Shown here one piece after another: positions 1 through 58,673 of a stretch of DNA of 64,000 nucleotides; within the stretch, counting starts at the first letter, position 1, and each line of letters begins with the position of its first letter. The DNA comes from a virus. Under the pieces are notes generated by a model. The model was not told where the DNA came from and ran no database searches. It saw only the letters and a program-made list of their open reading frames with translations. The DNA lies in the IMG/VR virus record IMGVR_UViG_3300036401_000331, positions 2,650 to 66,649 of that record; one strand, given 5' to 3'. Position numbers and translations under genes: made by a program.

Positions 1-82
1 TCTTGCCGAACCACGCCTTGAACTCCGGCGTCTCGGTCTGCGCTATCCGGCCCGCCTCCACATCGCGAGGCGGGCTTGCGCT
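1..82 (-). CDS. Start of a -1-frame extension (SASPPRDVEAGRIAQTETPEFKAWFGK...), probable ADP-ribosyltransferase-like domain of polyvalent proteins; runs off the window
   Basis: Open -1 frame directly after the slippery heptamer; TxEFKAWFGxS is the usual lead-in to the VxYHGT ART-like domain of phage polyvalent proteins. Confidence 0.6.
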
Positions 83-1470
83 TTTGGGTGCTTCCCCGCC
101 CCTCCTCCAGCGGTCCATTCACCTGACTCGTCGCGCGGCTCAGAGGGATCGTAGGCGTCGGCGCGCTGCACCTTGGTCGGCTCGCCGGTCTGCGACGCCG
201 TCTTGAAATCGGTAAAGCTCGCGTGCTTGGCCCCGAACTCCTCGGCCTCGCGCAGCAGGTCGATGATGCCGATGTTGATGCGCGCCACGTCCATCTTCAT
301 CGCGTCGAAGTTGCCCTTCTGCGCCGCCAGCCCGATCAGGGCCGCCCAGCGGTGATGGCCGTCGAGGATGTAGTTGTCGTTGCTGATGACCGTGCGCACC
401 GCCTGCTTGGGATCGAAGTGCTGGGCGATGGCGGCGACCTTGACGCCGTTCAACTGGTTCTGCGTGGCGCGCAGGTGACTTGCCAGTTCCTGTCCCTCGC
501 TCACCGTGTAGCCCTTCTTGGCGAGGAACTTCTTGAAGCGCTCGGTGTCCTCCAGATCGAACTGGGGCATCTTCACCCGAGGGATGCCCTTCGACTCGCT
601 GCAGAACAGGTTGGTGCCCTGAACGCTGACGTTGCACAGGTCGAAGTCCTTGGCCTTGAGCTTGAGCTTGATCATCTCGGCCGAGACCTTCGACAGGTGA
701 TCGAGCAGCGTCGAGACCTCGCGCGGCTGCGCCAGCACCACCGGCTTGTTCTCGTACAGCGCCCGCGCCGCATCCTCGACGTGCGGGGTGTGGATGCGGC
801 CCTGCCCGTCGATGAACGCCTCGCGACTGTAGCCATGGCCGGGGTGCATCTTGCCGTCGACCACGGCGTGCAGCGACTCGTGGCGCTTGTCGATGTCCTC
901 CTCGCTGACGCCGTAGCTCTTGCCGATCTCCTTCGATTCGGCCAGCAGCTTCTTGGCCTCGGCGGTCGGCATGTCGTGCAGCCGGCGCTTCCAGATTTCG
1001 TTGGCGGTCTCGCTCAGCCCGAGCGGCGACGGCACCAGCTTTCGCCCTAGCTCCTTCTCGGCGTGATCGTACAGCGCATGCCCGATGCCCTTGCCGCGAT
1101 GGGCCTCCTCGACGTTGACGTGACTGAGGAACGGATGGCCGCGCGCATTGAGCGATGCCGAGCCGGCGTACTGGCCGCCGACATGGGCGTCGTAGCTCAT
1201 GCTGCCCGGCGGCGAGGTGATCGCCACGGTGCCACCAGTCGCCTCGCCCTTGGTGGCGAACTGGCCCTTGTTGGTCGGCTGGCCGCGCGGGTGGGCGCTT
1301 TCGTCCCACGCATCCATGCGCGCCAGCATGTCCTGCACCAGCGTCTCGTCGATCAGCACAGGCTCGACGTTGCGCTCGACGGTGAGCGCATCAGCCCGCG
1401 CCAGCGCCTTGTCGAGGCGCGCTTCGAGCGCCTGAAACTTCGCGACGATCAGGTGGTGCGGTACGCCCAT
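43..1470 (-). CDS. Polyvalent head-associated protein with GNAT acetyltransferase and ParB-like domains
   Basis: WDESAHPRGQPTNKGQF and YDPSEPRDESGEWT motifs; GNAT motif VEEAHRGKGIGHALY; ParB-like ILDGHHRWAA; AGGAG 6 nt upstream of ATG 1470. Confidence 0.75.
   Translation of the reverse strand: MGVPHHLIVAKFQALEARLDKALARADALTVERNVEPVLIDETLVQDMLARMDAWDESAHPRGQPTNKGQFATKGEATGGTVAITSPPGSMSYDAHVGGQYAGSASLNARGHPFLSHVNVEEAHRGKGIGHALYDHAEKELGRKLVPSPLGLSETANEIWKRRLHDMPTAEAKKLLAESKEIGKSYGVSEEDIDKRHESLHAVVDGKMHPGHGYSREAFIDGQGRIHTPHVEDAARALYENKPVVLAQPREVSTLLDHLSKVSAEMIKLKLKAKDFDLCNVSVQGTNLFCSESKGIPRVKMPQFDLEDTERFKKFLAKKGYTVSEGQELASHLRATQNQLNGVKVAAIAQHFDPKQAVRTVISNDNYILDGHHRWAALIGLAAQKGNFDAMKMDVARINIGIIDLLREAEEFGAKHASFTDFKTASQTGEPTKVQRADAYDPSEPRDESGEWTAGGGAGKHPKAQARLAMWRRAG
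50..108 (-). promoter_or_regulatory. Programmed -1 ribosomal frameshift signal
   Basis: SD-like GGAGGAGG (108-101), 12 nt gap, C CCA AAA (88-82), 6 nt spacer, 9-bp stem GCCCGCCTC/GAGGCGGGC (75-50). Confidence 0.75.
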
Positions 1471-2160: not shown

Positions 2161-2415
2161 TCAGATGATCTTCCAATCCCACGCGAGGATGTCGTCCTGC
2201 GTCGGATGCCATGGGCCTACCGAAGCGTTCTGGTCGCGATAGACGATCAGAGGCTTGAAGGTCATCACCGCGCGGGCGTGCCCCGTCTCGGCCACCCATT
2301 CGCGCGACAGCACGATCCACTCGCCCTCGGGCCACACGCCGCGCCGGCACTGCTTGCCCTCGTGCAGCGCCAGCCGCGCATCGCCGATGCCGTGGGCTTG
2401 GCCGTCGTCGGTCAT
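2161..2415 (-). CDS. DUF2829-family protein (Tad2-like)
   Basis: IGDARLALHEGKQCRRGVW...PWHPTQDDILAWDWKII matches the DUF2829 pattern. Confidence 0.7.
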   Translation of the reverse strand: MTDDGQAHGIGDARLALHEGKQCRRGVWPEGEWIVLSREWVAETGHARAVMTFKPLIVYRDQNASVGPWHPTQDDILAWDWKII

Positions 2416-3235: not shown

Positions 3236-4081
3236 TCAGGCTCCTGCGAGTTGGGTTTGGACTTCGATCAGCTTGGCCTTGCCCTTGGCCGTGATCATGT
3301 CGTCGGGCATGTCGCGCAGCGCGTAGATGTACTCATAGAAACACCGGCAGAAGACTTCCTCGCCGGGCTGGGTGATCGCGTCGGTGTAGCCGTTCGGACC
3401 GGGCTTCACCAGTCCGGCATCGTCGGCCCAGCTATCGCGCACGAGGTAGACCTTCTCGTCGCGCTCCTTGTGATCCTCGCGATAGTCGTAGCCCGGCTGC
3501 CGCCAGTGGCTGTGCCACATTCCGGCAATCGCGCCGGCCTCGTTGGCCACGATGTCGTTGATCGCGCTGGTCAGCTTGTGGCCTTGGTCGATGATGACGC
3601 GCCGCTCGGTGAAAGGCAGGCCAGCGATACCCCGCTTGATCGTCTCTCGCGCGCCCGCCTTGTCGGGCTCGGCCGCACCGCCGGCCGGGATGCTCGATGC
3701 CCAGCCGCTGAAGCGCCGCATGGTCGCCTCGATCTGCTCGTCGCGGTTCAGCCTGATCAGGTCGGCCGAGGCGCTGATGCGCTTGTCGAGTTCGTCGCGC
3801 AGCTTGGGCTTGACGTTGGCCAGCGTGAAGCGCTCGACGCCGGGATGCCAGTTCAGTATCTGGCCCTGCTCGACCTGCTTCTGCCAGATCGCGCGCAGCG
3901 CCTCGCGCATCATGTTCTCCAGCTTGGCACGCGGCACGAACGAGCGTGTCAGCGTCTCGCGCAGAACCCGCAGCCAGTAGGCGAGGCGCTGCGTCGAGTC
4001 GAAGCCATGCTCGATCATGTCGGCGATGGCCTCGTTGAGCACCTTGGTGAAGCTCGCATTACCGATGGGCGGGAGGGCCAC
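3236..4081 (-). CDS. MuF / SPP1 gp7-like head morphogenesis protein
   Basis: WHSHWRQPGYDYREDH...PGEEVFCRC motif; directly downstream of portal. Confidence 0.85.
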   Translation of the reverse strand: MALPPIGNASFTKVLNEAIADMIEHGFDSTQRLAYWLRVLRETLTRSFVPRAKLENMMREALRAIWQKQVEQGQILNWHPGVERFTLANVKPKLRDELDKRISASADLIRLNRDEQIEATMRRFSGWASSIPAGGAAEPDKAGARETIKRGIAGLPFTERRVIIDQGHKLTSAINDIVANEAGAIAGMWHSHWRQPGYDYREDHKERDEKVYLVRDSWADDAGLVKPGPNGYTDAITQPGEEVFCRCFYEYIYALRDMPDDMITAKGKAKLIEVQTQLAGA

Positions 4082-5660
4082 TGGTCGGCTTCCTGTTCTC
4101 CAGCATGCGATTCACGGCCGCCGTGAACTCGACCACGGCATCAGCGCTGTCGTGCGCCGAGCCCTTCAGGCCGAACGACTTCGGTCCCTGTATCTGCGGC
4201 GGCTTGCCGGCAGCGCCACCGGGTTGCTGGCCGCCCTGTCCGGGCGCACCGGGCTGCATGCCGGCCTTCATCGCCTCCTTCTGCTGGTCCTGCTGTTCCT
4301 GCGCGTTCTGCGCGATGGCGTCGTAGTCGAGCACCAGCGGGCTGTCGAACAGGAACTGCAGCGCGTTGAAATTGTCGACCGCCCATTCGATCAGCCGCGC
4401 CTTGTTCTCGGGATCGACGATGGGCAGCAGCGTCTGCACCCACGACACGACCGCGCGCAGCTTGACCTCGTCGACCTTCACAAGCTCGCTGTCGGGCTCC
4501 TTGAGCAGCGATGGCCACTTGGCCTCGAAGCTGTTCTTCCACTCGTAGAACGCCTGCTCGTAGGTCTTGCTGGCGTACTCGTTGTAGTCGCGCTGGATGG
4601 TCTTGTAGAACTCCGGGTTCCATGCCCGGTGCATGACGATGCGGTCGTAGTAGTCGAACAGCGGCTTCAGCCCGTCTCGGACTCCGTCGACATAGCGGGC
4701 GATGGCCTTGGCGTCCTCCGTGCCTTCGCCGAACCCTTCCGCGAAAGTTTCCTCGGTGAGGATTTTGGCGGGCATGCCGCTCGCGCTCGCGATGTTTTCG
4801 AGGATTTGCTTGCGGACGATTTCGAGCGGCCCGTCGAGGTTCTGGAAGTTGAGCGAGACGATGTCCTCGTCCGGGGAGATGCCGATGACGTTGCCATTTT
4901 CTGCCTCCTTCACGATGCCGCGCTTGATGCCGAACATCTTCAGCATGGCGCTGTTCACCACGCTGCCTGCCTGCTTCATCTTGGCCACCAGCACCGCCGC
5001 CTTGCGTGCCACCATGTCGTCCGCGACCATGGTCTGCAGGAACGACTTCATCGGGTAGAGCGAGCGCTGGTAGGCCGAGCGGCCAACAAAGCCGAACGCC
5101 GATGACGTGAAGCTGATGTAGATCGGCGCTTCGTTCATAATCACGCAGGTGCGGCTGCGGTGGAACACGTTGCCCTGCACCCTGATCTCGGTGGTGTGCT
5201 GGAACTCCAGCGACATCGGGTCTTGCTCCAGCACCAGCGAGCCCGCCGTGTTCATCGGATCGTAGACGTTGAAGCTGATGTTGCCCTTGTAGAGCTTGGT
5301 GTAGTCGACCGGCTTGTTGACGTCGACATTCTCCTCCATCAGCGCCACCGAGGCGATGCCGTAGATGCGGCTGAGCCGCGCCACGTTCTTGATGTGATCG
5401 TCCGCGCCGACGCGATCCCACTCGGTCTCGAAGGCCTCGATCACGCGCTGCTCTGGCGAGTTGGGCACGCTGATCTCGCGCGGCTCCGACATGGCGATTT
5501 CAAGCGGCTTCTCGACCAGCTTCGCGCCGAGCGGGTGGAACAGGTAAATCTGCTTGCACAGTTCGTAGCTCGGGCCGTAGCCGGGCACGATGTCGTCGTT
5601 GGTCGTCAGCAGCGAGTTGAGCGCCGTGCCGAGCGTGGAGTTGACGAGGACGATGGCCAT
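4059..5660 (-). CDS. Portal protein (DUF1073-like)
   Basis: About 533 aa between TerL and MuF; RLSRIYGIAS, ENIASASGMPAKIL...GFGEGTEDAK motifs. Confidence 0.85.
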   Translation of the reverse strand: MAIVLVNSTLGTALNSLLTTNDDIVPGYGPSYELCKQIYLFHPLGAKLVEKPLEIAMSEPREISVPNSPEQRVIEAFETEWDRVGADDHIKNVARLSRIYGIASVALMEENVDVNKPVDYTKLYKGNISFNVYDPMNTAGSLVLEQDPMSLEFQHTTEIRVQGNVFHRSRTCVIMNEAPIYISFTSSAFGFVGRSAYQRSLYPMKSFLQTMVADDMVARKAAVLVAKMKQAGSVVNSAMLKMFGIKRGIVKEAENGNVIGISPDEDIVSLNFQNLDGPLEIVRKQILENIASASGMPAKILTEETFAEGFGEGTEDAKAIARYVDGVRDGLKPLFDYYDRIVMHRAWNPEFYKTIQRDYNEYASKTYEQAFYEWKNSFEAKWPSLLKEPDSELVKVDEVKLRAVVSWVQTLLPIVDPENKARLIEWAVDNFNALQFLFDSPLVLDYDAIAQNAQEQQDQQKEAMKAGMQPGAPGQGGQQPGGAAGKPPQIQGPKSFGLKGSAHDSADAVVEFTAAVNRMLENRKPTSGPPAHR

Positions 5661-5836
5661 CAGGCGTTGCCCGCTATTGGCATGCGGGCGAAGTGCCACG
5701 CCTGCCCGCTCAGCACGAACGCGACCACGTCATCGCAGTCCATTTGCCGCTCCTTGAGGCGCTGCTCGGCGATCACCACGCCCTGCGCCACCATCGCGCG
5801 GTGCGAGTAGAACATGCAGTTGTCGCTCATGTTCAT
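5660..5836 (-). CDS. Small hypothetical protein
   Basis: Stop overlaps portal ATG. Confidence 0.4.
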   Translation of the reverse strand: MNMSDNCMFYSHRAMVAQGVVIAEQRLKERQMDCDDVVAFVLSGQAWHFARMPIAGNA

Positions 5837-5892: not shown

Positions 5893-6483
5893 ATGCCAAA
5901 CTATGGCATGACCCCATGGGATCAGGCCCACACCGAAGCCTGCGCAATCGCTCGCCAGATCAGCGCGGACATTGCCTTGAGCACCGACCATCTCGGGCTG
6001 GTCGACGGCATCGCCTGCGGCCTGCTTGCGGTCGACACCTGCGCGGTCGAATGGATAGCCGAGAGCAGTTGGCAGGGCCTGTCGCCGTTTCCGACCCGTG
6101 ACGACCGCGAGTGGGCTTTGACCTCCGAACTCGACCGCGAGGAGTGGCGCGAGGCGGTGCGCTGCCTGCGAGAGACCAACGCCTCCGCTGTCACTGTCGC
6201 TCGCTACCGCAAAGCCGCACGCCTGCCGAAACCCAAGCCTGCCCCCTATCGGTATGTGCCGCCGCCCGCCCTCGTCGCCATCGCTGATTTCTGGTTCGAG
6301 CGCAGGTGGTTCTTCCACGCCTACGACGAGGCCAAGAGGGACATGGTCCGACGCCATGTCGCGACCGATTCGATCCTGCACAGCCGACTGAACGCGACGG
6401 GCCATGACCGTGTGTTCCTCGAAGGCATCCTCTACACCGCTCAGAACATCTCGACGTCGCCCAGCGCCAGCGCCGTGCCGTAG
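5893..6483 (+). CDS. Hypothetical protein, antisense insertion between terL and portal
   Basis: 196-aa ORF with GC3-biased codons filling an otherwise empty gap. Confidence 0.55.
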   Translation: MPNYGMTPWDQAHTEACAIARQISADIALSTDHLGLVDGIACGLLAVDTCAVEWIAESSWQGLSPFPTRDDREWALTSELDREEWREAVRCLRETNASAVTVARYRKAARLPKPKPAPYRYVPPPALVAIADFWFERRWFFHAYDEAKRDMVRRHVATDSILHSRLNATGHDRVFLEGILYTAQNISTSPSASAVP

Positions 6484-8066
6484 CACAGGCAATCGAACAT
6501 CTCGTCTTCGTCGTTCGGTGTGCCGTAGCCGACGCGGAACGTGGTCGCCTGATGCCACAGGTGATTGCGGTTGCGGCCGTGGAAGATGCTGGTCTTCGCG
6601 TAGGCCTCCTTGGTGATCTTCACCATGCCCCGGAAGATGTAGCCGCTGACGTTGACCGCACGCGCCTCCTTGCCAAGCGCGACCAGCTTCGAGTCGATGG
6701 GATGGACGTTGAGGCCGCGCCGCACCGCCTGCTGGATCAGCACAATGCCGCTGTCCTTCTCCTCGATCCATGCGCCGGCCGATCCCATGATCGCGCCGGT
6801 CTCGCGCGCCAGTTCCTCGTTGCGCTCCAGCACGCCGGGCAGCATCTGCTCCAGCAGCGAAGCCTCGATCTGCACAAGCTCCCAGTCGATCAGCCGCACC
6901 TGCTCGATGGGGAATTGCGTGTAGGCGAGGTGCAGCACACCCGTGCCGTCGCGTGCCTTGCCAACCTTTGACGCCGTGTCGATCACCGAGAACGTGTACT
7001 GGCAGATCGCGGGCTTCTCAGCCGGCTCATAGACCGGCTCGCCCTCGGTCTCGCGCTTGATCAGGAAGTTCGAGGGATTGAAGAAGTAGCTGCCCTCGCG
7101 GGCGCGCGGCTGTTGCTGGTACTGGGTGGCGTAGGCGTGCTCGCCGAGTTCGAGCTTGTTGGCCTCGACGGTCTCGCGCGGTAGACGATTCGGGCACAGT
7201 AGCTCGCCGTCCTCGGTGCGCGGGTCTTCGTAGAACGGCGTCTTCACCACCAGCGACTTCACGAACTCCATGGGCAGCACGAGCTTGGTGTAGGGCAGGT
7301 CAAGCTGCTCGATGACGCCGCACACGTCGTCGGGGTGCAGGCGGTGCATCATCACGATGATGGTGTCCTTGACCGGATCGTTGAGGCGGCTGGTCACCGA
7401 CTCTCGGAACATGCGGCTGGTGGTCTCGCGATCCTGATCGCTCTCGGCCTGCTCGGTCGAGTGCGGGTCGTCGATCACGACCCTGTTGCCACGGCCGGCG
7501 GTCATCGACTTGAAGGGCACGGCCTTGCGGTTGCCGAGATAGGTGTTCTCGAAGTCGATCTCGCCGTCGCGGGTCAGCACGATCTCGGGCCACAGCGTGC
7601 GATACCACTCGGACAGGATCAGGTCTCGACAGCGCCGGCTATCACGTCGCGCCCAGTCTTCGCGATACGATGTGGTGAGGAAGCGCAGGCCCGGCGTTGC
7701 GCCCGGTCCCCATTCCCATGCCTCGAACATGACAGAAACTGTCAGCGACTTCATCGTGCCGGGCGGCTGGTTGATCTGCAGCCGCTGTATCTCGCCACGA
7801 TGAACCGCTTCGAGGTGCTCGCCTATCGCCTCATGGTGCCACGATGGCTTGTAGGGCGTGGTCGGTTCGAGGATGTGCCACGACTTCTGCACGAAGCCGT
7901 AGAAGCGCTTGCAGGCCTCGCGGACCTCCTCGGTGTTGTCGAGGAACTCACGCTGCTGTCGCCGCTCCTCCAGCTTGATCGCCTTCCGCGCTTCGATCAC
8001 CGCCAGAAACTTTGACAGATTCGATAGCTGCGAGGACACGCCCTCCGAGTGCATCGAGTTCCTCAT
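6441..8066 (-). CDS. terL: Terminase large subunit
   Basis: INQPPGTMKS Walker A, VVIDDPH Walker B, YATQYQQQP, nuclease IDTA...DEMFD; exact start uncertain. Confidence 0.93.
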   Translation of the reverse strand: MRNSMHSEGVSSQLSNLSKFLAVIEARKAIKLEERRQQREFLDNTEEVREACKRFYGFVQKSWHILEPTTPYKPSWHHEAIGEHLEAVHRGEIQRLQINQPPGTMKSLTVSVMFEAWEWGPGATPGLRFLTTSYREDWARRDSRRCRDLILSEWYRTLWPEIVLTRDGEIDFENTYLGNRKAVPFKSMTAGRGNRVVIDDPHSTEQAESDQDRETTSRMFRESVTSRLNDPVKDTIIVMMHRLHPDDVCGVIEQLDLPYTKLVLPMEFVKSLVVKTPFYEDPRTEDGELLCPNRLPRETVEANKLELGEHAYATQYQQQPRAREGSYFFNPSNFLIKRETEGEPVYEPAEKPAICQYTFSVIDTASKVGKARDGTGVLHLAYTQFPIEQVRLIDWELVQIEASLLEQMLPGVLERNEELARETGAIMGSAGAWIEEKDSGIVLIQQAVRRGLNVHPIDSKLVALGKEARAVNVSGYIFRGMVKITKEAYAKTSIFHGRNRNHLWHQATTFRVGYGTPNDEDEMFDCLCYGTALALGDVEMF

Positions 8067-8373
8067 AGGTGAGCTTGTCGATGTCGAAGCCCATCATCGG
8101 TGTCTCGGGCTCGGCTGGTGAGACTCGACCATAGCCGCGCTCGAAGATCACCGTCGCGCAACCGAGGACAACAGTTGGCGCTGTCTCCTTGTCGCGCATG
8201 ATGTCGACCACAGCCGCGAACGCCTCGGCCGTGTACTGCTGGGCCAGCTTCTTGAGATCGACGAGGTTGCCGCGTGAGCCTTTGCGCCGGCCTGCAGGGT
8301 TGCCCGACTTGCCCTTCTGGAAGCCGCCCTTGCCGGTGGGGTTGCGCACGACGCGAAGCGGGGTGACGGACAT
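7948..8373 (-). CDS. terS: Probable terminase small subunit (DUF5681-like)
   Basis: FQKGKSGNPAGRRKG motif; directly upstream of terL. Confidence 0.7.
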   Translation of the reverse strand: MSVTPLRVVRNPTGKGGFQKGKSGNPAGRRKGSRGNLVDLKKLAQQYTAEAFAAVVDIMRDKETAPTVVLGCATVIFERGYGRVSPAEPETPMMGFDIDKLTYEELDALGGRVLAAIESVKVSGGDRSAEGDQAGGAATAA

Positions 8374-9598: not shown

Positions 9599-9668
9599 GT
9601 CTGTCTGCCTCTGCTGTGGTCGAAAAACTTAACTCGACGCTGGACACTAGTGGTTGATCCCGGTTGGT

Positions 9669-9787
9669 CCGCACGAAGGGGCGCACGGGCACGGGGGTCT
9701 AATAGACCCCCCGTGCGCCCCGTGCGCCCCATCATGCAACGGACTGCGCACAGGGGGCGCACGGGGGGTAGCGCACGGGGGTGTGCG
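9669..9787. repeat. Cluster of GCGCACGGGG-like repeats in both orientations around a central palindrome; putative replication origin
   Basis: About 8-9 copies of (GC)GCAC(G/A)GG; GCACGGGGGTCTA-A-TAGACCCCCCGTGC centre; directly downstream of the primase-helicase. Confidence 0.6.
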
Positions 9788-9788
9788 G

Positions 9789-11885
9789 TCACTTTTTTGG
9801 CCCCGGTGTCGTTGGCCAAACATATAGCTCGTACAAGGACATAAGGCCCTTGTCGGCCAACTTTTTGCGAAGCTCGGAGTAGCGCGCACGGATGACACTC
9901 AGTGCGCTCTCCCGTGCGCGCACAGTTAGGCGCACATCCGGGTCTTGCGGCAATAGGTCCACTTTCTGAAGTTCTTCCCTAAATCTGGTAGTCGTGATGA
10001 CCGGCGTCGTGGTCGGATAATTGACCGTATCGGGGGGCTTCATGCCGTGGTTGGCGACGGTGCGGACGAGCACGTCGTGGGCGCGCTGCCATTGCGGCTT
10101 GGGCTTGGCGGGCGGGTCTGGGAACTCGGCCGGGCGGGCGACGACGGAGCGGATCATCTTGTCGGAGCCGTCGACATCCTCGACGATGCCGAGGTCGATG
10201 ACCTCCAGAGCGAAGGCCAGTGCCTTGCTGATCGCGCCGTCGCGGGTCTTGGTGGCGATCCACGAGCGCGGCTCGCTGCTGATCTCGATGACGGTATCGC
10301 ACAGGTCGAACTGGGCCTGTGTGCCGCGTGCGCCCAAGGTGGTGTCCTTGCCGGTGTTCTGGATGACGATGGGCGAGGCCCCGGTGGCACGAGCGACCTC
10401 GCGGCACTTGCCGTAGAAGGCGGCGACTTCCTCGGAGTAGTTCTCGCGCAGGCCGGGGGCGGCCGAACGCATGTTGTCGAGCACGAACACGCCGACCTTT
10501 GGTGCGCCGATTCGCTGGGCCTCGATGTTCATCTCGTTGATGGTGGCGATGACCTTGGCGACGGCGATCTGGCTGGTGGTGGCGTCGATGCCGAAATCGA
10601 CCGGGACAGTGACGATCTTGAAAGGGGCGTCGGGCAGGATGTCGCCGATGACCTTGGACACGTAGGCCTTGAGCCGATTGTAGAACCCGATCTCGCCTTC
10701 GAGCGCGATGTAGAGCACGCCGCACTTGAGCGTTTTGCGCTCGAACCATGGCAGGCCACGCAGCAGACAGAACACGAGGTCGATGACGAGCAGCGTCTTG
10801 CCGGCGGTGCTCGGGCCGAAGATCATGGTGAGGTAGTCGTCCTCGCCGATCAGGCCGGCGACGCGGCGCAGCGGGTCACGCAGTTCGAGGGCGAGGATTT
10901 CGGCCAGCCACTTGCCGGGGAACGGCTTGTCGACAGAGCGCTGCTCGCCCCAGTCATCGGCGCTGCCATTGGGCTCGTAGGGATGGCGGCCGTTGCCGTT
11001 GGGCTTTGCGTGACCGTTGGGCTTGCCCTTGTTGGGGTCGACCCAGCCGGCATCGAGCGCATGGTGGAAGATGGTGCCCTCGCCGACCTGATCGCCGGGC
11101 GAGACGCGCCAGTTGTCCCAGCGCTCGCGACAGGCGCGCTCGTCGAACTTCGAGGACTGCGCCGACCACGCCATGAAGGCCTCGTAGCCGCGCGTCGATC
11201 CGCCGGTCGCCTTGTGGATCGCCATGCCCCGCGTGTTCCACTCCTCCCACGACAGGTCACCATTGCGCATCGCGGCGATGGCATCGTAGAGCCGGTCGGT
11301 GTCATCCATGCGCGGCGCGGCCGGCTTGTCATCGAAGCGCGCCATCGCGGTGCGCACGGCGTACAGGATGTCGACCCCGATGGTGCGCAGCGTGGTGTAG
11401 CCCTGATAGACCGCCTCGGTGACGGCCATGAAGTGCTTGGCGAGGTACTGCTCGATGCCCAAGTCCTTGCCGCCCTTCGGGTTGGGCTTCTGGACGTGCT
11501 TGCGCCAGCGGTGCTTGGCATCGAGCGTCAGCTTGGGATCGTGCAGGAAGAATATCTTCAGCCCGGTCCCCGAGGGCGAAACTTCGGTGTAACTATTGAC
11601 CTTGACAACGATCTCGGCGGCCCATGGTTCGAGGTCGCCCTCCTCGCCGATGCAGGCGTCGAGGTCTATGCCGCCGAGGTGCAGGCCGTCCTCGACCGGG
11701 GCCAGCATGATGTTGATGCCGTCATGGTGACGCTGGTCGCGGCACTGCTCGGCCTCGAAGTAGGTCATCCATGTTGACGGATCGTTCGACTTGGCCAGCC
11801 CGCCGTCGAGCGCGTAGGGCACCTTGCTGGGCTTGTTGCCGCCCGCGCGTATCTCGTTCTTCCACGTCGTCCAGATCGCCGCCAT
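9789..11885 (-). CDS. Primase-helicase (AEP primase/polymerase, PriCT-2, RecA-like AAA_25 helicase)
   Basis: GIDLDAC, SYTEVSPSGTGLKIF; W...GMAIH...AWSAQSSKF; FGPSTAGKT, VLYIALEG; the usual HH motif reads IQNTGKD. Confidence 0.9.
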   Translation of the reverse strand: MAAIWTTWKNEIRAGGNKPSKVPYALDGGLAKSNDPSTWMTYFEAEQCRDQRHHDGINIMLAPVEDGLHLGGIDLDACIGEEGDLEPWAAEIVVKVNSYTEVSPSGTGLKIFFLHDPKLTLDAKHRWRKHVQKPNPKGGKDLGIEQYLAKHFMAVTEAVYQGYTTLRTIGVDILYAVRTAMARFDDKPAAPRMDDTDRLYDAIAAMRNGDLSWEEWNTRGMAIHKATGGSTRGYEAFMAWSAQSSKFDERACRERWDNWRVSPGDQVGEGTIFHHALDAGWVDPNKGKPNGHAKPNGNGRHPYEPNGSADDWGEQRSVDKPFPGKWLAEILALELRDPLRRVAGLIGEDDYLTMIFGPSTAGKTLLVIDLVFCLLRGLPWFERKTLKCGVLYIALEGEIGFYNRLKAYVSKVIGDILPDAPFKIVTVPVDFGIDATTSQIAVAKVIATINEMNIEAQRIGAPKVGVFVLDNMRSAAPGLRENYSEEVAAFYGKCREVARATGASPIVIQNTGKDTTLGARGTQAQFDLCDTVIEISSEPRSWIATKTRDGAISKALAFALEVIDLGIVEDVDGSDKMIRSVVARPAEFPDPPAKPKPQWQRAHDVLVRTVANHGMKPPDTVNYPTTTPVITTTRFREELQKVDLLPQDPDVRLTVRARESALSVIRARYSELRKKLADKGLMSLYELYVWPTTPGPKK

Positions 11886-12240
11886 GGCGAAGGCATCGAC
11901 CAGCGCGGCCATCAAACGACTCGGGCATGTCTGGAGACGAGCATGGGAACCCTCGCGAAATAGAGTGCGGGTAATCCCTTCCTCGAAAGCAGCCGCGAGG
12001 ACGCTGTCGGAGGGGTGGAGAAAAGGTCCGTCGACCTCTGTCCCCGCGCCCGCAAGATGCGCCAAGGCCTGTCACCGCGTCAAGCGTGGGGTTTTGCAGG
12101 GTGAGCACGCCAGCGGAACGGTGTGCTGTCTAGGAGACGAGGTCGCGAGGAGCCGGGTGCATTACGTCCGACGTCGCGCCGCTCAACACTGGCGTGCTCG
12201 TGCCAAGATATGGCACGCCCAGCCCGACAATGAAAGGGGT

Positions 12241-57930: not shown

Positions 57931-58673
57931 CAGGGGTTTCCGGGGACGCCGCCGCCCGTGCCGGCTCCTGTGTTGACGCTGGCGGGCACCACCGCGCCCG
58001 AGCCGGGGGGAGTGGCCGAGATCGGCGAATTGCCGATGCCGGTGGTGAGCACGGGGCCGGTGGTGCGCTGGCCCGAGTTGATGCCGTCGAGCACTTGGTT
58101 GAGGCGGTTCTGCTGGGTCAGCGCGTCGTCGACCGTGAGCAGCGGCTTCTCGAACTCCAGCACCCACTGGTTCTGCACCTGTTTGGTCACGCCGGACGAG
58201 GAGTCGCGCATGCTTTTCATCACGCAGTTGGTGTAGATGAAGGCCGGCGTGATCAGGCTGTAGGTGCCGCCCGTCAGGTTGTGCCGTTCGAGGATGTTCT
58301 GCAGCAGCATGATCTTGGCGAGCTTCGTCCACATGCCGAGCCGGCCGCGCGCGGGCGCGGTCATCTGGTAGGCGATGCGCAGCGGCTGCTGGATGGTGGC
58401 GTTGGCCGCCACGGTCTGGTTGGCGAACGGGTACTTGGCGATCTCCTGCTCGATCAGGGTCGAGCCCGGCATCACCTGAAAACTGGCGAAGGTGTCGTCG
58501 AGACTGGGCAGCCGGCCGGTCGTCAGCACGCCGAGCGGGAAATTGACCGCCTCGGTGGCGAGGATGATCGGCAGCACCTGATAGGGCATGAACTCGGCGA
58601 AGCCGCCGACCAGAATGATCGGCGATAGCTCGAAGGCCAGCTTGTAGGCGACCAGTCCTGCGCTCAGCGCCAT
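57930..58673 (-). CDS. Tail tube initiator-like baseplate protein
   Basis: SPIILVGG, YPFANQTVAANA, HN..GGTY...TP, FEKPL. Confidence 0.75.
   Translation of the reverse strand: MALSAGLVAYKLAFELSPIILVGGFAEFMPYQVLPIILATEAVNFPLGVLTTGRLPSLDDTFASFQVMPGSTLIEQEIAKYPFANQTVAANATIQQPLRIAYQMTAPARGRLGMWTKLAKIMLLQNILERHNLTGGTYSLITPAFIYTNCVMKSMRDSSSGVTKQVQNQWVLEFEKPLLTVDDALTQQNRLNQVLDGINSGQRTTGPVLTTGIGNSPISATPPGSGAVVPASVNTGAGTGGGVPGNP

What the first reader, a model, noticed from the sequence alone, without database searches (positions are those of the whole stretch)
1..108. Complete -1 frameshift signal that would fuse a probable ADP-ribosyltransferase domain onto a polyvalent head protein
Seen: on the minus strand, 13 codons before the stop of 43..1470, lie GGAGGAGG (108-101), a 12-nt gap, the in-frame heptamer C CCA AAA (88-82), a 6-nt spacer and a perfect 9-bp stem (75-67 with 58-50). 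The -1 frame stays open to the window edge and reads ...AQTETPEFKAWFGK. Known: an upstream SD plus X XXY YYZ plus a downstream hairpin is the dnaX/IS-type architecture; CCCAAAA is the slip site in Lactobacillus phage A2 structural genes; FKxWFGxS precedes the YHGT ART-like domain in phage polyvalent proteins. Inference: the phage makes short and long forms, rationing an injected enzymatic effector by recoding. I do not know of a description of this for polyvalent proteins.
Basis: partly seen in the sequence, partly recalled or inferred. Interest (0 to 1): 0.82.

Follow-up and report, generated by a model that had tools for sequence, protein, structure and literature searches.

The report
Probable frameshift joining phage effector genes
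In an uncultured soil phage, a textbook ribosome-slip signal sits exactly where a two-enzyme gene and a much longer ADP-ribosyltransferase gene overlap out of frame, so the phage probably makes both a short and a very long form of a multi-enzyme protein thought to be injected with its DNA; no protein has been observed.

Summary
On the minus strand lie GGAGGAGG (108-101), a 12-nt gap, in-frame C CCA AAA (88-82), a 6-nt spacer and a perfect 9-bp stem (75-67/58-50, -21.5 kcal/mol). The 0-frame stop follows at 45-43.

The contig runs 2,649 bases past window position 1. The -1 frame stays open to the contig end (912 codons after the slip site) and carries ART-PolyVal domains. Four separately assembled public runs show no indel here.

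The signals are far from chance:
- 7 in-frame heptamers in 11,010 codons
- GGA, CCA and AAA are each 5-7% of their codon families
- GGAGGAGG occurs once on the contig
- the hairpin is in the lowest 0.3% of windows

The upstream ORF ends in a motif that relatives place directly before a further module.

Best reading is a dnaX/IS3-type programmed -1 frameshift giving a 475-aa GNAT + ParB/Srx-like protein and a fusion of at least 1,373 aa (about 0.6). Independent or coupled initiation at GTG 61-59 is not excluded. No relative shares the junction, so conservation could not be tested. This is a new member of a known kind.

The parts
43..1470 (-). Upstream ORF (475 aa, ATG 1470-1468, stop TAG 45-43): GNAT acetyltransferase module (res. 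91-141) plus a conserved DGHHRW module with a ParB/Srx-like fold (res. ~205-415)
   Evidence: ORF. AGGAG lies 6 nt before ATG 1470. GNAT by Pfam, E 1.6e-5, in 8 of 8 members of A1. The second module model has pLDDT 80.3, and fold-search ranks 1-9 are ParB-N, sulfiredoxin, Noc or ParB (best E 0.023, prob 0.99). Pfam ParBc was not detected.
100..162 (-). 'Header' motif ADAYDPSEPRDESGEWTAGGG (res. 437-457), the motif that precedes modules in polyvalent homologues
   Evidence: Same motif occurs in frame inside P0001 (ADAYNPNEARIPKGQEGAGQWTASGGGG) and in L004. P0020 has the header followed 10 residues later by FKAWFGNSKVV..YHGT. P0165 opens with ..LRADYDPGEPRDESGKWTGGG followed by an ART. Only 1 of 52 such motifs in 120 homologues lies within 45 aa of a C-terminus.
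101..108 (-). SD-like GGAGGAGG, 12 nt 5' of the heptamer (candidate 5' stimulator)
   Evidence: It is the only GGAGGAGG on the contig. GGA is 4.8% of Gly codons, and the parallel header in P0001 uses GGC GGC GGC GGA. No start codon follows it within 15 nt. The phage's genes use AGGAG/GGAG ribosome-binding sites.
82..88 (-). Slippery heptamer C CCA AAA in the 0 frame (Pro462 CCA, Lys463 AAA)
   Evidence: CCA is 6.9% of Pro codons and AAA is 5.3% of Lys codons. It is one of 7 in-frame heptamers in 11,010 codons.
50..75 (-). Stem-loop: arms 75-67 and 58-50 (9 perfect pairs, 8 G-C), loop 66-59, starting 6 nt after the heptamer. An outer 4-bp helix pairs 81-78 with 43-40.
   Evidence: The 9-bp stem folds at -21.5 kcal/mol and at -25.0 with the outer helix. 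Only 5 of 1,801 windows fold as well. No Rfam family matches.
43..45 (-). 0-frame stop TAG, 4 nt after the base of the hairpin
2..118 (-). Start of the -1 frame ORF (P0001; open from ATG 118-116, preceded by TGA 121-119). After a shift it reads SASPPRDVEAGRIAQTETPEFKAWFGK and continues left of the window to the contig end.
   Evidence: ART-PolyVal covers P0001 residues 44-177 (L003:2237-2638, minus strand), with a second copy from about residue 475. The order of modules matches P0165 and P0153.
59..61 (-). GTG in the -1 frame inside the hairpin loop: candidate independent or coupled start (rival reading)
   Evidence: No SD-like core in the 20 nt upstream. It would give MEAGRIAQTETPEF.., which resembles natural N-termini of ART-first homologues.
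116..118 (-). ATG in the -1 frame: second candidate independent start (rival reading)
   Evidence: AGGTGA abuts it with no spacer. ORF starts of this phage preceded by AGGTGA leave 3-4 nt.

Best explanation
This is a programmed -1 ribosomal frameshift cassette of the dnaX/IS3 type inside a phage polyvalent-effector locus.

Ribosomes translating the 475-aa GNAT + ParB/Srx-like gene reach C CCA AAA with tRNA-Pro and tRNA-Lys in the P and A sites. Two things act on them there. The anti-SD of 16S rRNA pairs with GGAGGAGG 12 nt upstream. The -21.5 kcal/mol hairpin sits 6 nt downstream at the mRNA entrance.

A fraction of ribosomes slips back one base (CCA to CCC, AAA to AAA). Those ribosomes continue with Ser (AGC 82-80) into the -1 frame. 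They make a fusion of 463 + at least 910 residues: GNAT, ParB-like, header, ART-PolyVal, domain X, ART-PolyVal, header, further domain. Its C-terminus lies beyond the contig end. The remaining ribosomes terminate 13 codons later.

Shown here:
- the DNA anatomy and the rarity of each signal
- the open -1 frame and its domain content
- the frame break being real in DNA
- the upstream ORF ending in a module header whose module is in the -1 frame

Inferred:
- that shifting occurs, and its efficiency
- that both products are packaged in the capsid and injected, which rests on gene context next to terminase, portal and head-morphogenesis genes and on published predictions for polyvalent proteins
For: (1) Anatomy and spacing are exact.

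(2) Each signal is rare in this 65.7% GC genome.
- There are 7 in-frame heptamers in 11,010 codons. GGA is 4.8%, CCA 6.9% and AAA 5.3% of their codon families.
- GGAGGAGG is unique on the contig, and the parallel header encodes its Gly run as GGC GGC GGC GGA.
- The hairpin is in the lowest 5 of 1,801 windows and is matched by 1 of 200 shuffles.
- Of the 7 in-frame heptamers, only this one has an SD-like box, a strong hairpin and a long -1 ORF. It is 1 of 65 heptamers in any frame.

(3) The -1 frame is open for 912 codons and encodes ART-PolyVal (160.4 bits, cut-off 31.2).

(4) The break is real in DNA. One contig in each of 4 of 4 laid runs spans 3,000 nt with 0 gaps. The only 3 substitutions (window 136, 139, 433) are third-position synonymous changes in the 0 frame (codons read).

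(5) Homology joins the two frames.
- The upstream ORF ends in a header motif that is followed in frame by a module in L004, P0020 and P0165.
- Only 1 of 52 headers in 120 homologues is within 45 aa of a C-terminus, and that protein breaks off 19 residues after its header, in the opening motif of domain X.
- GNAT + ParB-like is fused in frame to downstream modules in L004 (2,037-codon frame), L005 (1,627) and L006 (838).

(6) Entry into the -1 frame must occur between 118 and about 35, because the conserved TETPEFKAWFG motif lies there.

(7) The two possible start codons have no properly spaced SD. By contrast, 17 of 28 ORFs have one at their first start.

(8) An SD-like 5' stimulator plus a simple stem-loop is the described dnaX arrangement, and the SD stimulator is estimated for 56% of IS elements (passages of PMC5009743).
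Against: There is no translation-level evidence. No RNA run was listed.

No relative shares this junction, so conservation and covariation of the heptamer and stem are untested.

Modules of this kind can begin a protein.
- 13 of 94 ART N-motifs lie within 60 residues of a protein N-terminus, against only 4 of 94 that have a header within 60 residues upstream.
- A GTG 61-59 start would give a natural-looking N-terminus.

In the six closest homologues of the upstream protein (P0002-P0007) it is a stand-alone gene. On two contigs of matching length an ART-bearing giant gene with its own ATG is called separately.

The efficiency of C CCA AAA in the unknown host is unknown.

The four laid runs may include the source sample and represent one phage population.
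Confidence: 0.6

Rival explanations
1. These are two cistrons. The ART-bearing ORF is translated on its own, from GTG 61-59 or less likely ATG 118-116. Translation would probably be coupled to termination of the upstream gene at TAG 45-43, with the hairpin masking the start until upstream ribosomes open it. On this reading the heptamer and SD-like box are coincidental.
For: 13 of 94 ART N-motifs in 193 homologues lie within 60 residues of a called N-terminus, for example M....TETPAFKKWFG. GTG 61-59 would give MEAGRIAQTETPEF. The closest homologues of the upstream protein are stand-alone genes of 427-456 aa. P0165 and P0153 are called with their own ATG. Most overlapping gene pairs in the 80 related loci are ordinary ATGA-type junctions.
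Against: Neither start has an SD at a usable distance, while 17 of 28 ORFs of this phage have one at their first start. GTG 61-59 sits in the loop of a -21.5 kcal/mol hairpin. This reading leaves three rare features unexplained at the right spacings. It also leaves a module header stranded at the C-terminus of the upstream protein, which occurs in 1 of 52 cases in homologues. It is compatible with frameshifting happening as well.
Confidence: 0.2
2. This is an unprogrammed frameshift mutation fixed in this phage population. An ancestral single giant ORF (as in L004 and L005) was broken, and the downstream 912 codons are silent or made only by background slippage.
For: Relatives carry the same modules in one frame. 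All laid runs are near-identical, so the break could be recent. L016 shows another -1 break in a related polyvalent gene with a heptamer but no hairpin and no SD-like box.
Against: A random indel would not land on a site that combines the contig's only GGAGGAGG, one of 7 in-frame heptamers and one of 7 perfect 9-bp hairpins at canonical spacings. The 912-codon -1 frame is intact with GC3 0.87, like the phage's other genes. The same sequence is held by 24 listed runs dated 2020 and 2023.
Confidence: 0.1
3. This is an assembly or sequencing artefact, meaning a false single-base indel in the metagenomic contig.
For: The record is a metagenome-assembled viral contig, and short homopolymers (CCC, AAAA) lie at the site.
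Against: Contigs assembled separately from 4 of 4 laid runs (word depth 9.6 to 48) cover the region with 0 gaps.
Confidence: 0.02

Closest known systems
E. coli dnaX tau/gamma -1 frameshift cassette
   Same: The three-part architecture is the same: an internal SD-like 5' stimulator, an X XXY YYZ heptamer and a simple 3' stem-loop (passages of PMC5009743). One gene yields a short and a long product that share an N-terminal part.
   Different: The heptamer here is C CCA AAA, not A AAA AAG. Here the shifted ribosomes make the longer product. The review mentions that reversed layout only as predicted for a few bacteria. The gene class is also different. The dnaX spacings of 10 and 6 nt are recalled from memory and were not seen in a call.
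IS3-family orfA-orfB transframe transposase (e.g. IS911)
   Same: A -1 shift near the end of ORF A fuses it to a longer enzyme-coding ORF B. An SD stimulator is estimated for 56% of IS elements (PMC5009743 passage).
   Different: This is not a transposable element. The IS911 structure is a three-way junction, whereas here there is a plain hairpin.
Phage structural-gene frameshifts (lambda G/GT tail chaperone; Lactobacillus phage A2 head and tail proteins; T3/T7 capsid)
   Same: -1 frameshifting in late genes of tailed phages sets a fixed ratio of short and extended virion-associated proteins (PMC5009743 and PMC10885494 passages).
   Different: Those extensions are short or structural domains. 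Here the extension is at least 910 residues of enzymatic modules.
Polyvalent proteins of phages and conjugative elements (Iyer et al. 2017, PMC5512222; Iyer et al. 2022, PMC9503650)
   Same: This is a large multi-enzyme protein with an ART domain, encoded beside terminase, portal and head-morphogenesis genes. Such proteins are predicted to be packaged and injected (passages).
   Different: Those papers describe single polypeptides and proteolytic processing. 'Frameshift' and 'recoding' occur 0 times in the main text of PMC5512222, and 'frameshift' 0 times in PMC9503650. Their supplements could not be seen.

Membership tests
Programmed -1 ribosomal frameshift site (dnaX/IS3 type) | X XXY YYZ heptamer in the 0 frame within the overlap of the two ORFs | tested here: met
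   C CCA AAA at 88-82 with codons CCA and AAA in frame. The overlap is 118-43.
Programmed -1 ribosomal frameshift site (dnaX/IS3 type) | Long -1 ORF with coding character and homologues, lacking a convincing start of its own | tested here: inconclusive
   The -1 frame is open for 912 codons with GC3 0.87 and carries ART-PolyVal. However, GTG 61-59 and ATG 118-116 exist, both without a properly spaced SD.
Programmed -1 ribosomal frameshift site (dnaX/IS3 type) | Stable 3' structure 5-9 nt after the heptamer | tested here: met
   9-bp perfect stem, 6-nt spacer, -21.5 kcal/mol (-25.0 with the outer helix), z = -2.74, matched by 5 of 1,801 windows.
Programmed -1 ribosomal frameshift site (dnaX/IS3 type) | SD-like 5' stimulator about 10-14 nt upstream (optional feature) | tested here: met
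   GGAGGAGG lies 12 nt upstream and is unique on the contig. The phage's own ribosome-binding sites are AGGAG/GGAG. The optimal-distance range is recalled from memory.
Programmed -1 ribosomal frameshift site (dnaX/IS3 type) | Conservation of heptamer and structure in diverged relatives | not testable with these tools
   No relative with this junction was found in viral contigs, phages, metagenome contigs or genome contigs. The 4 laid runs are near-identical.
Programmed -1 ribosomal frameshift site (dnaX/IS3 type) | Transframe protein observed | not testable with these tools
   This needs a reporter assay or mass spectrometry.
Polyvalent protein (Iyer et al. 2017) | Several unrelated enzymatic modules in one polypeptide, including PolyVal-type domains | tested here: met
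   GNAT, a ParB/Srx-like fold, and ART-PolyVal at 160.4 bits with 3 matched stretches. Homologues shuffle the same modules.
Polyvalent protein (Iyer et al. 2017) | Encoded in the head-packaging neighbourhood | tested here: met
   Terminase large subunit 6441-8093, portal 4059-5699 and head morphogenesis phrog_324 3236-4081, all on the same strand.
Polyvalent protein (Iyer et al. 2017) | Packaged in the virion and delivered to the host | not testable with these tools
   This is a prediction from the literature only.
ParB/Srx superfamily (upstream ORF residues ~205-415) | Match to Pfam ParBc, or a clear fold match | tested here: inconclusive
   No ParBc hit at E up to 0.1 in 8 of 8 members, and no PDB sequence hit. 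The model (pLDDT 80.3) gives ParB-N, Srx, Noc or ParB as ranks 1-9, but the best E is 0.023 and 0 matches reach E 0.001 or lower. D166, G167, H168, H169 and W171 are invariant in 61 sequences.

The most novel reading that the evidence does not exclude
Frameshifting directly after a module 'header' may be a general way for high-GC tailed phages to set how many copies of a capsid-targeted core protein carry a giant enzymatic cargo, here at least 910 residues with two ADP-ribosyltransferases.

On this reading the recurrent header peptide ((D/N)P.(E/Q)PR..G.W(T) GGG) is a docking or processing tag. C CCA AAA would be the preferred slip site of these phages. A polyvalent locus could then switch in evolution between three layouts: one ORF, two genes, or a frameshift-joined pair.
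Probability: 0.3. Interest if true: 0.7.

Novelty: new member of a known kind. Interest (0 to 1): 0.5.

Why it matters
Polyvalent proteins are thought to be the enzyme kit a phage injects with its DNA to disarm the host. How a phage controls the dose of such huge cargo inside a capsid of limited volume is unknown.

A frameshift site would give a fixed, genetically encoded ratio of a short two-enzyme form to a long form carrying two ADP-ribosyltransferases. This is the Gag-Pol logic applied to injected effectors.

It also matters for annotation. Gene callers will report two unrelated ORFs and miss a protein of at least 1,373 residues. The cassette is short and self-contained, so it can be tested directly in a reporter.

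Tried and rejected
- Close relatives with the same junction were sought and not found. Viral contigs with the upstream protein gave 0 pattern matches. blastn against 50,697 phage records gave no match. Metagenome contigs with P0001 gave 1 irrelevant locus. Viral contigs with P0001 gave none. Genome contigs with alignment A1 gave 1 irrelevant locus. Conservation and covariation therefore could not be tested.
- No RNA holder was listed among the 24 runs.
- Rfam gave nothing meaningful in the 601 bases around the site. The two matches had E of 8.6 and 9.
- A plus-strand terminator was considered. The scan found one terminator-like site (64-80, plus strand) against 1.4 expected in shuffles. No plus-strand gene is placed to use it. 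Rejected.
- Transcriptional slippage was rejected on general knowledge, because runs of C3 and A4 are too short.
- The other in-frame heptamers were checked. A AAC CCC at 57939 is an ordinary gene junction, since phrog_8737 starts at residue 4 of the -1 frame. A AAA AAG at 9798 runs into repeat-rich non-coding DNA.
- The phage A2 slip-site sequence could not be checked because the papers are not held. A full-text search for 'CCCAAAA' plus 'frameshift' returned unrelated papers.
- tblastn of the ART module against cultured phages gave 27 records, all below 60% identity. None was informative about the junction.
- Pfam and PDB sequence searches did not name the DGHHRW module.
- The search of earlier findings by place and by sequence found nothing.
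Full report
**1. Observation.**

On the minus strand the sequence reads ..GAA TGG ACC GCT GGA GGA GGG GCG GGG AAG CAC CCA AAA GCG CAA GCC CGC CTC GCG ATG TGG AGG CGG GCC GGA TAG.
- GGAGGAGG is at 108-101.
- C CCA AAA is at 88-82, with CCA and AAA as 0-frame codons of ORF 43..1470.
- The spacer is 6 nt.
- The stem pairs 75-67 with 58-50 (nine perfect pairs), with an 8-nt loop.
- The stop is at 45-43.

The -1 frame opens at ATG 118-116, directly after a TGA, and runs off the window.

**2. Beyond the window edge.**

The window is bases 2650-66649 of a 66,649-base viral record that CheckV estimates as 82% complete. In the 2,649 bases to the left, the -1 frame never closes. P0001 is 922 codons counted from ATG 118, or 912 codons from the heptamer, and it ends only with the contig.

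Pfam finds ART-PolyVal at residues 44-177 (E 5.7e-47, 160.4 bits against a cut-off of 31.2, three matched stretches). A second copy lies near residue 475.

**3. Is the break real?**

Twenty-four public soil or rhizosphere runs hold the stretch. I laid the contigs of four of them on 3,000 bases around the site. Each run has one contig spanning all 3,000 bases with 0 gaps and 0, 0, 2 or 3 substitutions.

The three variable positions are window 136, 139 and 433. Read, they are third-position synonymous changes in the 0 frame (GAG/GAA, CCG/CCA, GCC/GCG).

The tool warns that these runs may include the source sample. They therefore exclude an assembly error, but they represent a single phage population.

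**4. Are the signals more than chance?**

I took 28 ORFs with strong GC3 periodicity, 11,010 codons in all.
- Only 7 in-frame X XXY YYZ heptamers occur. That gives about 1.6% for the 25-codon overlap.
- GGA is 4.8% of Gly codons, CCA 6.9% of Pro, AAA 5.3% of Lys and GCT 5.4% of Ala. The 13 codons from GAA (120-118) to AAA (84-82) contain GCT, GGA, GGA, CCA and AAA.
- GGAGGAGG occurs once on the whole contig on both strands. The homologous Gly run of a second header inside P0001 is GGC GGC GGC GGA.
- Perfect stems of 9 bp or more with loops of 3-10 occur 7 times per strand in 66.6 kb.
- The 42 nt after the heptamer fold at -25.0 kcal/mol. Only 5 of 1,801 sampled windows and 1 of 200 shuffles fold as well.
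- Of the 7 in-frame heptamers, only this one has an SD-like box, a strong hairpin and a long -1 frame.
- Of all 65 heptamers in any frame on both strands, only this one combines a 5-mer SD-like core with an MFE of -20 or lower. One other, AAAGGGT at window 39802, has a 4-mer core and a hairpin.

The hairpin has no T-run on the coding strand. A weak terminator-like match on the opposite strand is within expectation.

**5. What the proteins are.**

The upstream protein is 475 aa, starting at ATG 1470 with AGGAG 6 nt upstream.
- It has a GNAT module.
- It also has a module of about 210 residues that is 40-64% identical in 118 of 120 homologues.
- In that module D166, G167, H168, H169 and W171 are invariant in 61 sequences.
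- Pfam does not name the module.
- An AlphaFold model (pLDDT 80.3) gives ParB N-domain, sulfiredoxin, Noc and ParB as its first nine PDB matches. The scores are weak: best E is 0.023 and none reaches 0.001.

I therefore call it ParB/Srx-like with moderate confidence.

On the same strand upstream lie the large terminase (6441-8093), the portal (4059-5699) and a head-morphogenesis protein (3236-4081). Several small ORFs follow, including a Tad2-like one. This is the gene context in which Iyer et al. predict polyvalent proteins and ARTs to be packaged and injected (passages seen).

**6. Comparative evidence that the two frames belong together.**

Homologues are mosaics of the same modules, each preceded by a short 'header' such as ..DPSEPRDE.G.WT.GGG or ..WDES.HPRGQP.N.G.F. 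The upstream ORF ends with such a header (ADAYDPSEPRDESGEWTAGGG, 162-100), immediately before the heptamer.

Several relatives show the header followed in frame by a module.
- The same header occurs inside P0001 and in L004, followed in frame by the next domain.
- In P0020 a header is followed after 10 residues by FKAWFGNSKVV..YHGT.
- P0165 begins ..LRADYDPGEPRDESGKWTGGG-ART. It then has the same order as P0001: header, domain X, ART, header, next domain.

In 120 homologues, 52 headers were found and only one lies within 45 residues of a C-terminus. That protein (P0029) breaks off 19 residues after its header, in the opening motif of domain X.

GNAT + ParB-like is fused in frame to further modules in L004 (2,037-codon open frame), L005 (1,627) and L006 (838).

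The header in the 0 frame and the ART in the -1 frame are therefore two halves of a unit that relatives encode contiguously.

**7. Evidence for the rival.**

The six closest homologues of the upstream protein (55-59% identical, 427-456 aa) are stand-alone. They end in an acidic tail without a header.

P0165 and P0153 are called with their own ATG. That is my inference, because the DNA could not be fetched.

Among 94 ART N-motifs in 193 homologues:
- 77 are internal without a header within 60 residues
- 13 lie within 60 residues of a called N-terminus
- only 4 have a header within 60 residues upstream

A start at GTG 61-59 would give MEAGRIAQTETPEF.., which looks like those natural N-termini.

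Several points count against this rival.
- GTG 61-59 has no SD-like core in the 20 nt upstream and sits in the loop of the hairpin.
- ATG 118-116 is abutted by AGGTGA with no spacer. ORF starts of this phage preceded by AGGTGA leave 3-4 nt.
- 17 of 28 ORFs have an SD-like core 3-12 nt before their first start.
- Later starts in the -1 frame would remove the conserved TETPEFKAWFG motif.

A coupled restart cannot be excluded, and it could coexist with frameshifting.

**8. A second case.**

I screened the 80 related loci for same-strand pairs of open frames of 250 codons or more that overlap by at most 400 nt. This gave 63 pairs. In 62 the downstream frame has a start codon before the upstream stop or within 39 nt after it.

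L016 is the exception, with its first start 267 nt past the stop. There the ParB-like module is in one frame. The header plus domain X is in the -1 frame. An in-frame C CCT TTC lies 11 codons before the stop. There is no hairpin (z = +0.5) and no SD-like box. This could be a weaker frameshift site, a pseudogene or an error. I could not check reads for it.

**9. Mechanism.**

The best-supported reading is a dnaX/IS3-type -1 frameshift.
- The ribosome pauses with CCA and AAA in the P and A sites.
- The pause comes from the hairpin at the entrance and the anti-SD pairing 12 nt behind.
- The tRNAs re-pair with CCC and AAA.
- Decoding continues with AGC.

Products would be a 475-aa form and a form of at least 1,373 aa (463 + 910). 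If it resembles P0165 (1,966 aa), the long form would be considerably longer.

The review PMC5009743 states that an SD stimulator and a simple stem-loop are features of dnaX, and that the SD stimulator is estimated for 56% of IS elements. It also states that frameshifting near the end of a structural ORF to add an enzyme needed in lower amounts is typically of low efficiency (passages). The numerical optimum spacings are recalled from memory.

**10. Novelty.**

Full-text searches for 'polyvalent protein' + frameshift + phage (3 papers, none relevant; passages of one read) and for 'ribosomal frameshift' + MuF + phage + effector (1 irrelevant paper) found no description. 'Frameshift' occurs 0 times in the two key papers. 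Their supplements could not be seen.

Earlier notes of this scan list 27 findings in 24 genomes that hold both 'polyvalent' and 'frameshift' (8 were shown, most describing frameshift-joined polyvalent or cargo genes), and 9 that mention CCCAAAA and frameshift, 8 shown. Some report conservation in dozens of relatives, and one was partly overturned on later checking. These are unchecked leads, not evidence. They suggest this case is one of a class rather than a singleton.

The mechanism is textbook and the gene class is new, so I rate this a new member of a known kind.

**11. Verdict.**

| Reading | Probability |
|---|---|
| Programmed -1 frameshift | about 0.6 |
| Separate or coupled initiation alone | about 0.2 |
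| Unprogrammed fixed mutation | about 0.1 |
| Artefact | about 0.02 |

Interest is 0.5.

Noticed in passing
window 2161-2415 (-): An 84-aa ORF between the head-morphogenesis gene and the polyvalent gene matches Pfam Tad2-like (Thoeris anti-defence 2), E 4.1e-13. This would be an anti-defence gene beside the effector locus.
   Followed up: no
L016:6750-7763 (+), heptamer 6879-6885: A related polyvalent gene has its header plus domain X in the -1 frame, with no start codon until 267 nt past the upstream stop. An in-frame C CCT TTC lies 11 codons before that stop. There is no hairpin and no SD-like box. This is a possible second frameshift-joined polyvalent gene, or a broken one.
   Followed up: partly
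proteins P0002-P0194; window 100-162 and 1240-1305 (-): A short 'header' peptide ((D/N)P.(E/Q)PR..G.W(T)GGG or WDES.HPRGQP.N.G.F) precedes modules in these polyvalent proteins. It occurs 66 times in 193 homologues, and 21 of those begin within the first 50 residues of a protein. Its role (docking, processing site or linker) is unknown. I saw no description of it in the passages read.
   Followed up: partly
P0001 residues ~215-450 (L003:1418-2125, -): 'Domain X' (YEFVSPN...GAWxDGAENS...LxFHTLxP...) recurs in P0008/L006, L008, L016, L023, L067/L069/L071, P0010, P0011, P0153 and P0165. It has no Pfam family at E up to 0.01.
   Followed up: no
window 9640-9800 (-): The primase/helicase-like ORF (PriCT_2 + AAA_25, 9789-12065) ends CCA AAA AAG TGA, which gives an in-frame A AAA AAG two codons before its stop. 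The following non-coding stretch is packed with direct and inverted copies of CCCCGTGCGC-like words, possibly origin iterons. The -1 frame there does not look coding.
   Followed up: partly
protein P0029 (500 aa, from an 84,676-base contig): This protein ends 19 residues after a header, within the first residues of domain X (..GGQWTAVGGGGSYEFVSPNVEFGR). This may be another frame break in a polyvalent gene.
   Followed up: no
window 39802 (-): AAAGGGT with an upstream SD-like 4-mer and a -28.8 kcal/mol structure downstream is the only other heptamer on the contig with both features. Its coding context was not examined.
   Followed up: no
window 1-1470 versus P0006/P0165: Compared with relatives that have two genes, this phage joins ..EEFGAKHA directly to SFTDF.., which corresponds to residues 2-6 of P0165 (MSFIDL..). 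It therefore lacks the roughly 40-residue acidic tail, the stop and the start seen there. The first gene boundary has been erased in frame, while a frame break sits one header further on.
   Followed up: partly
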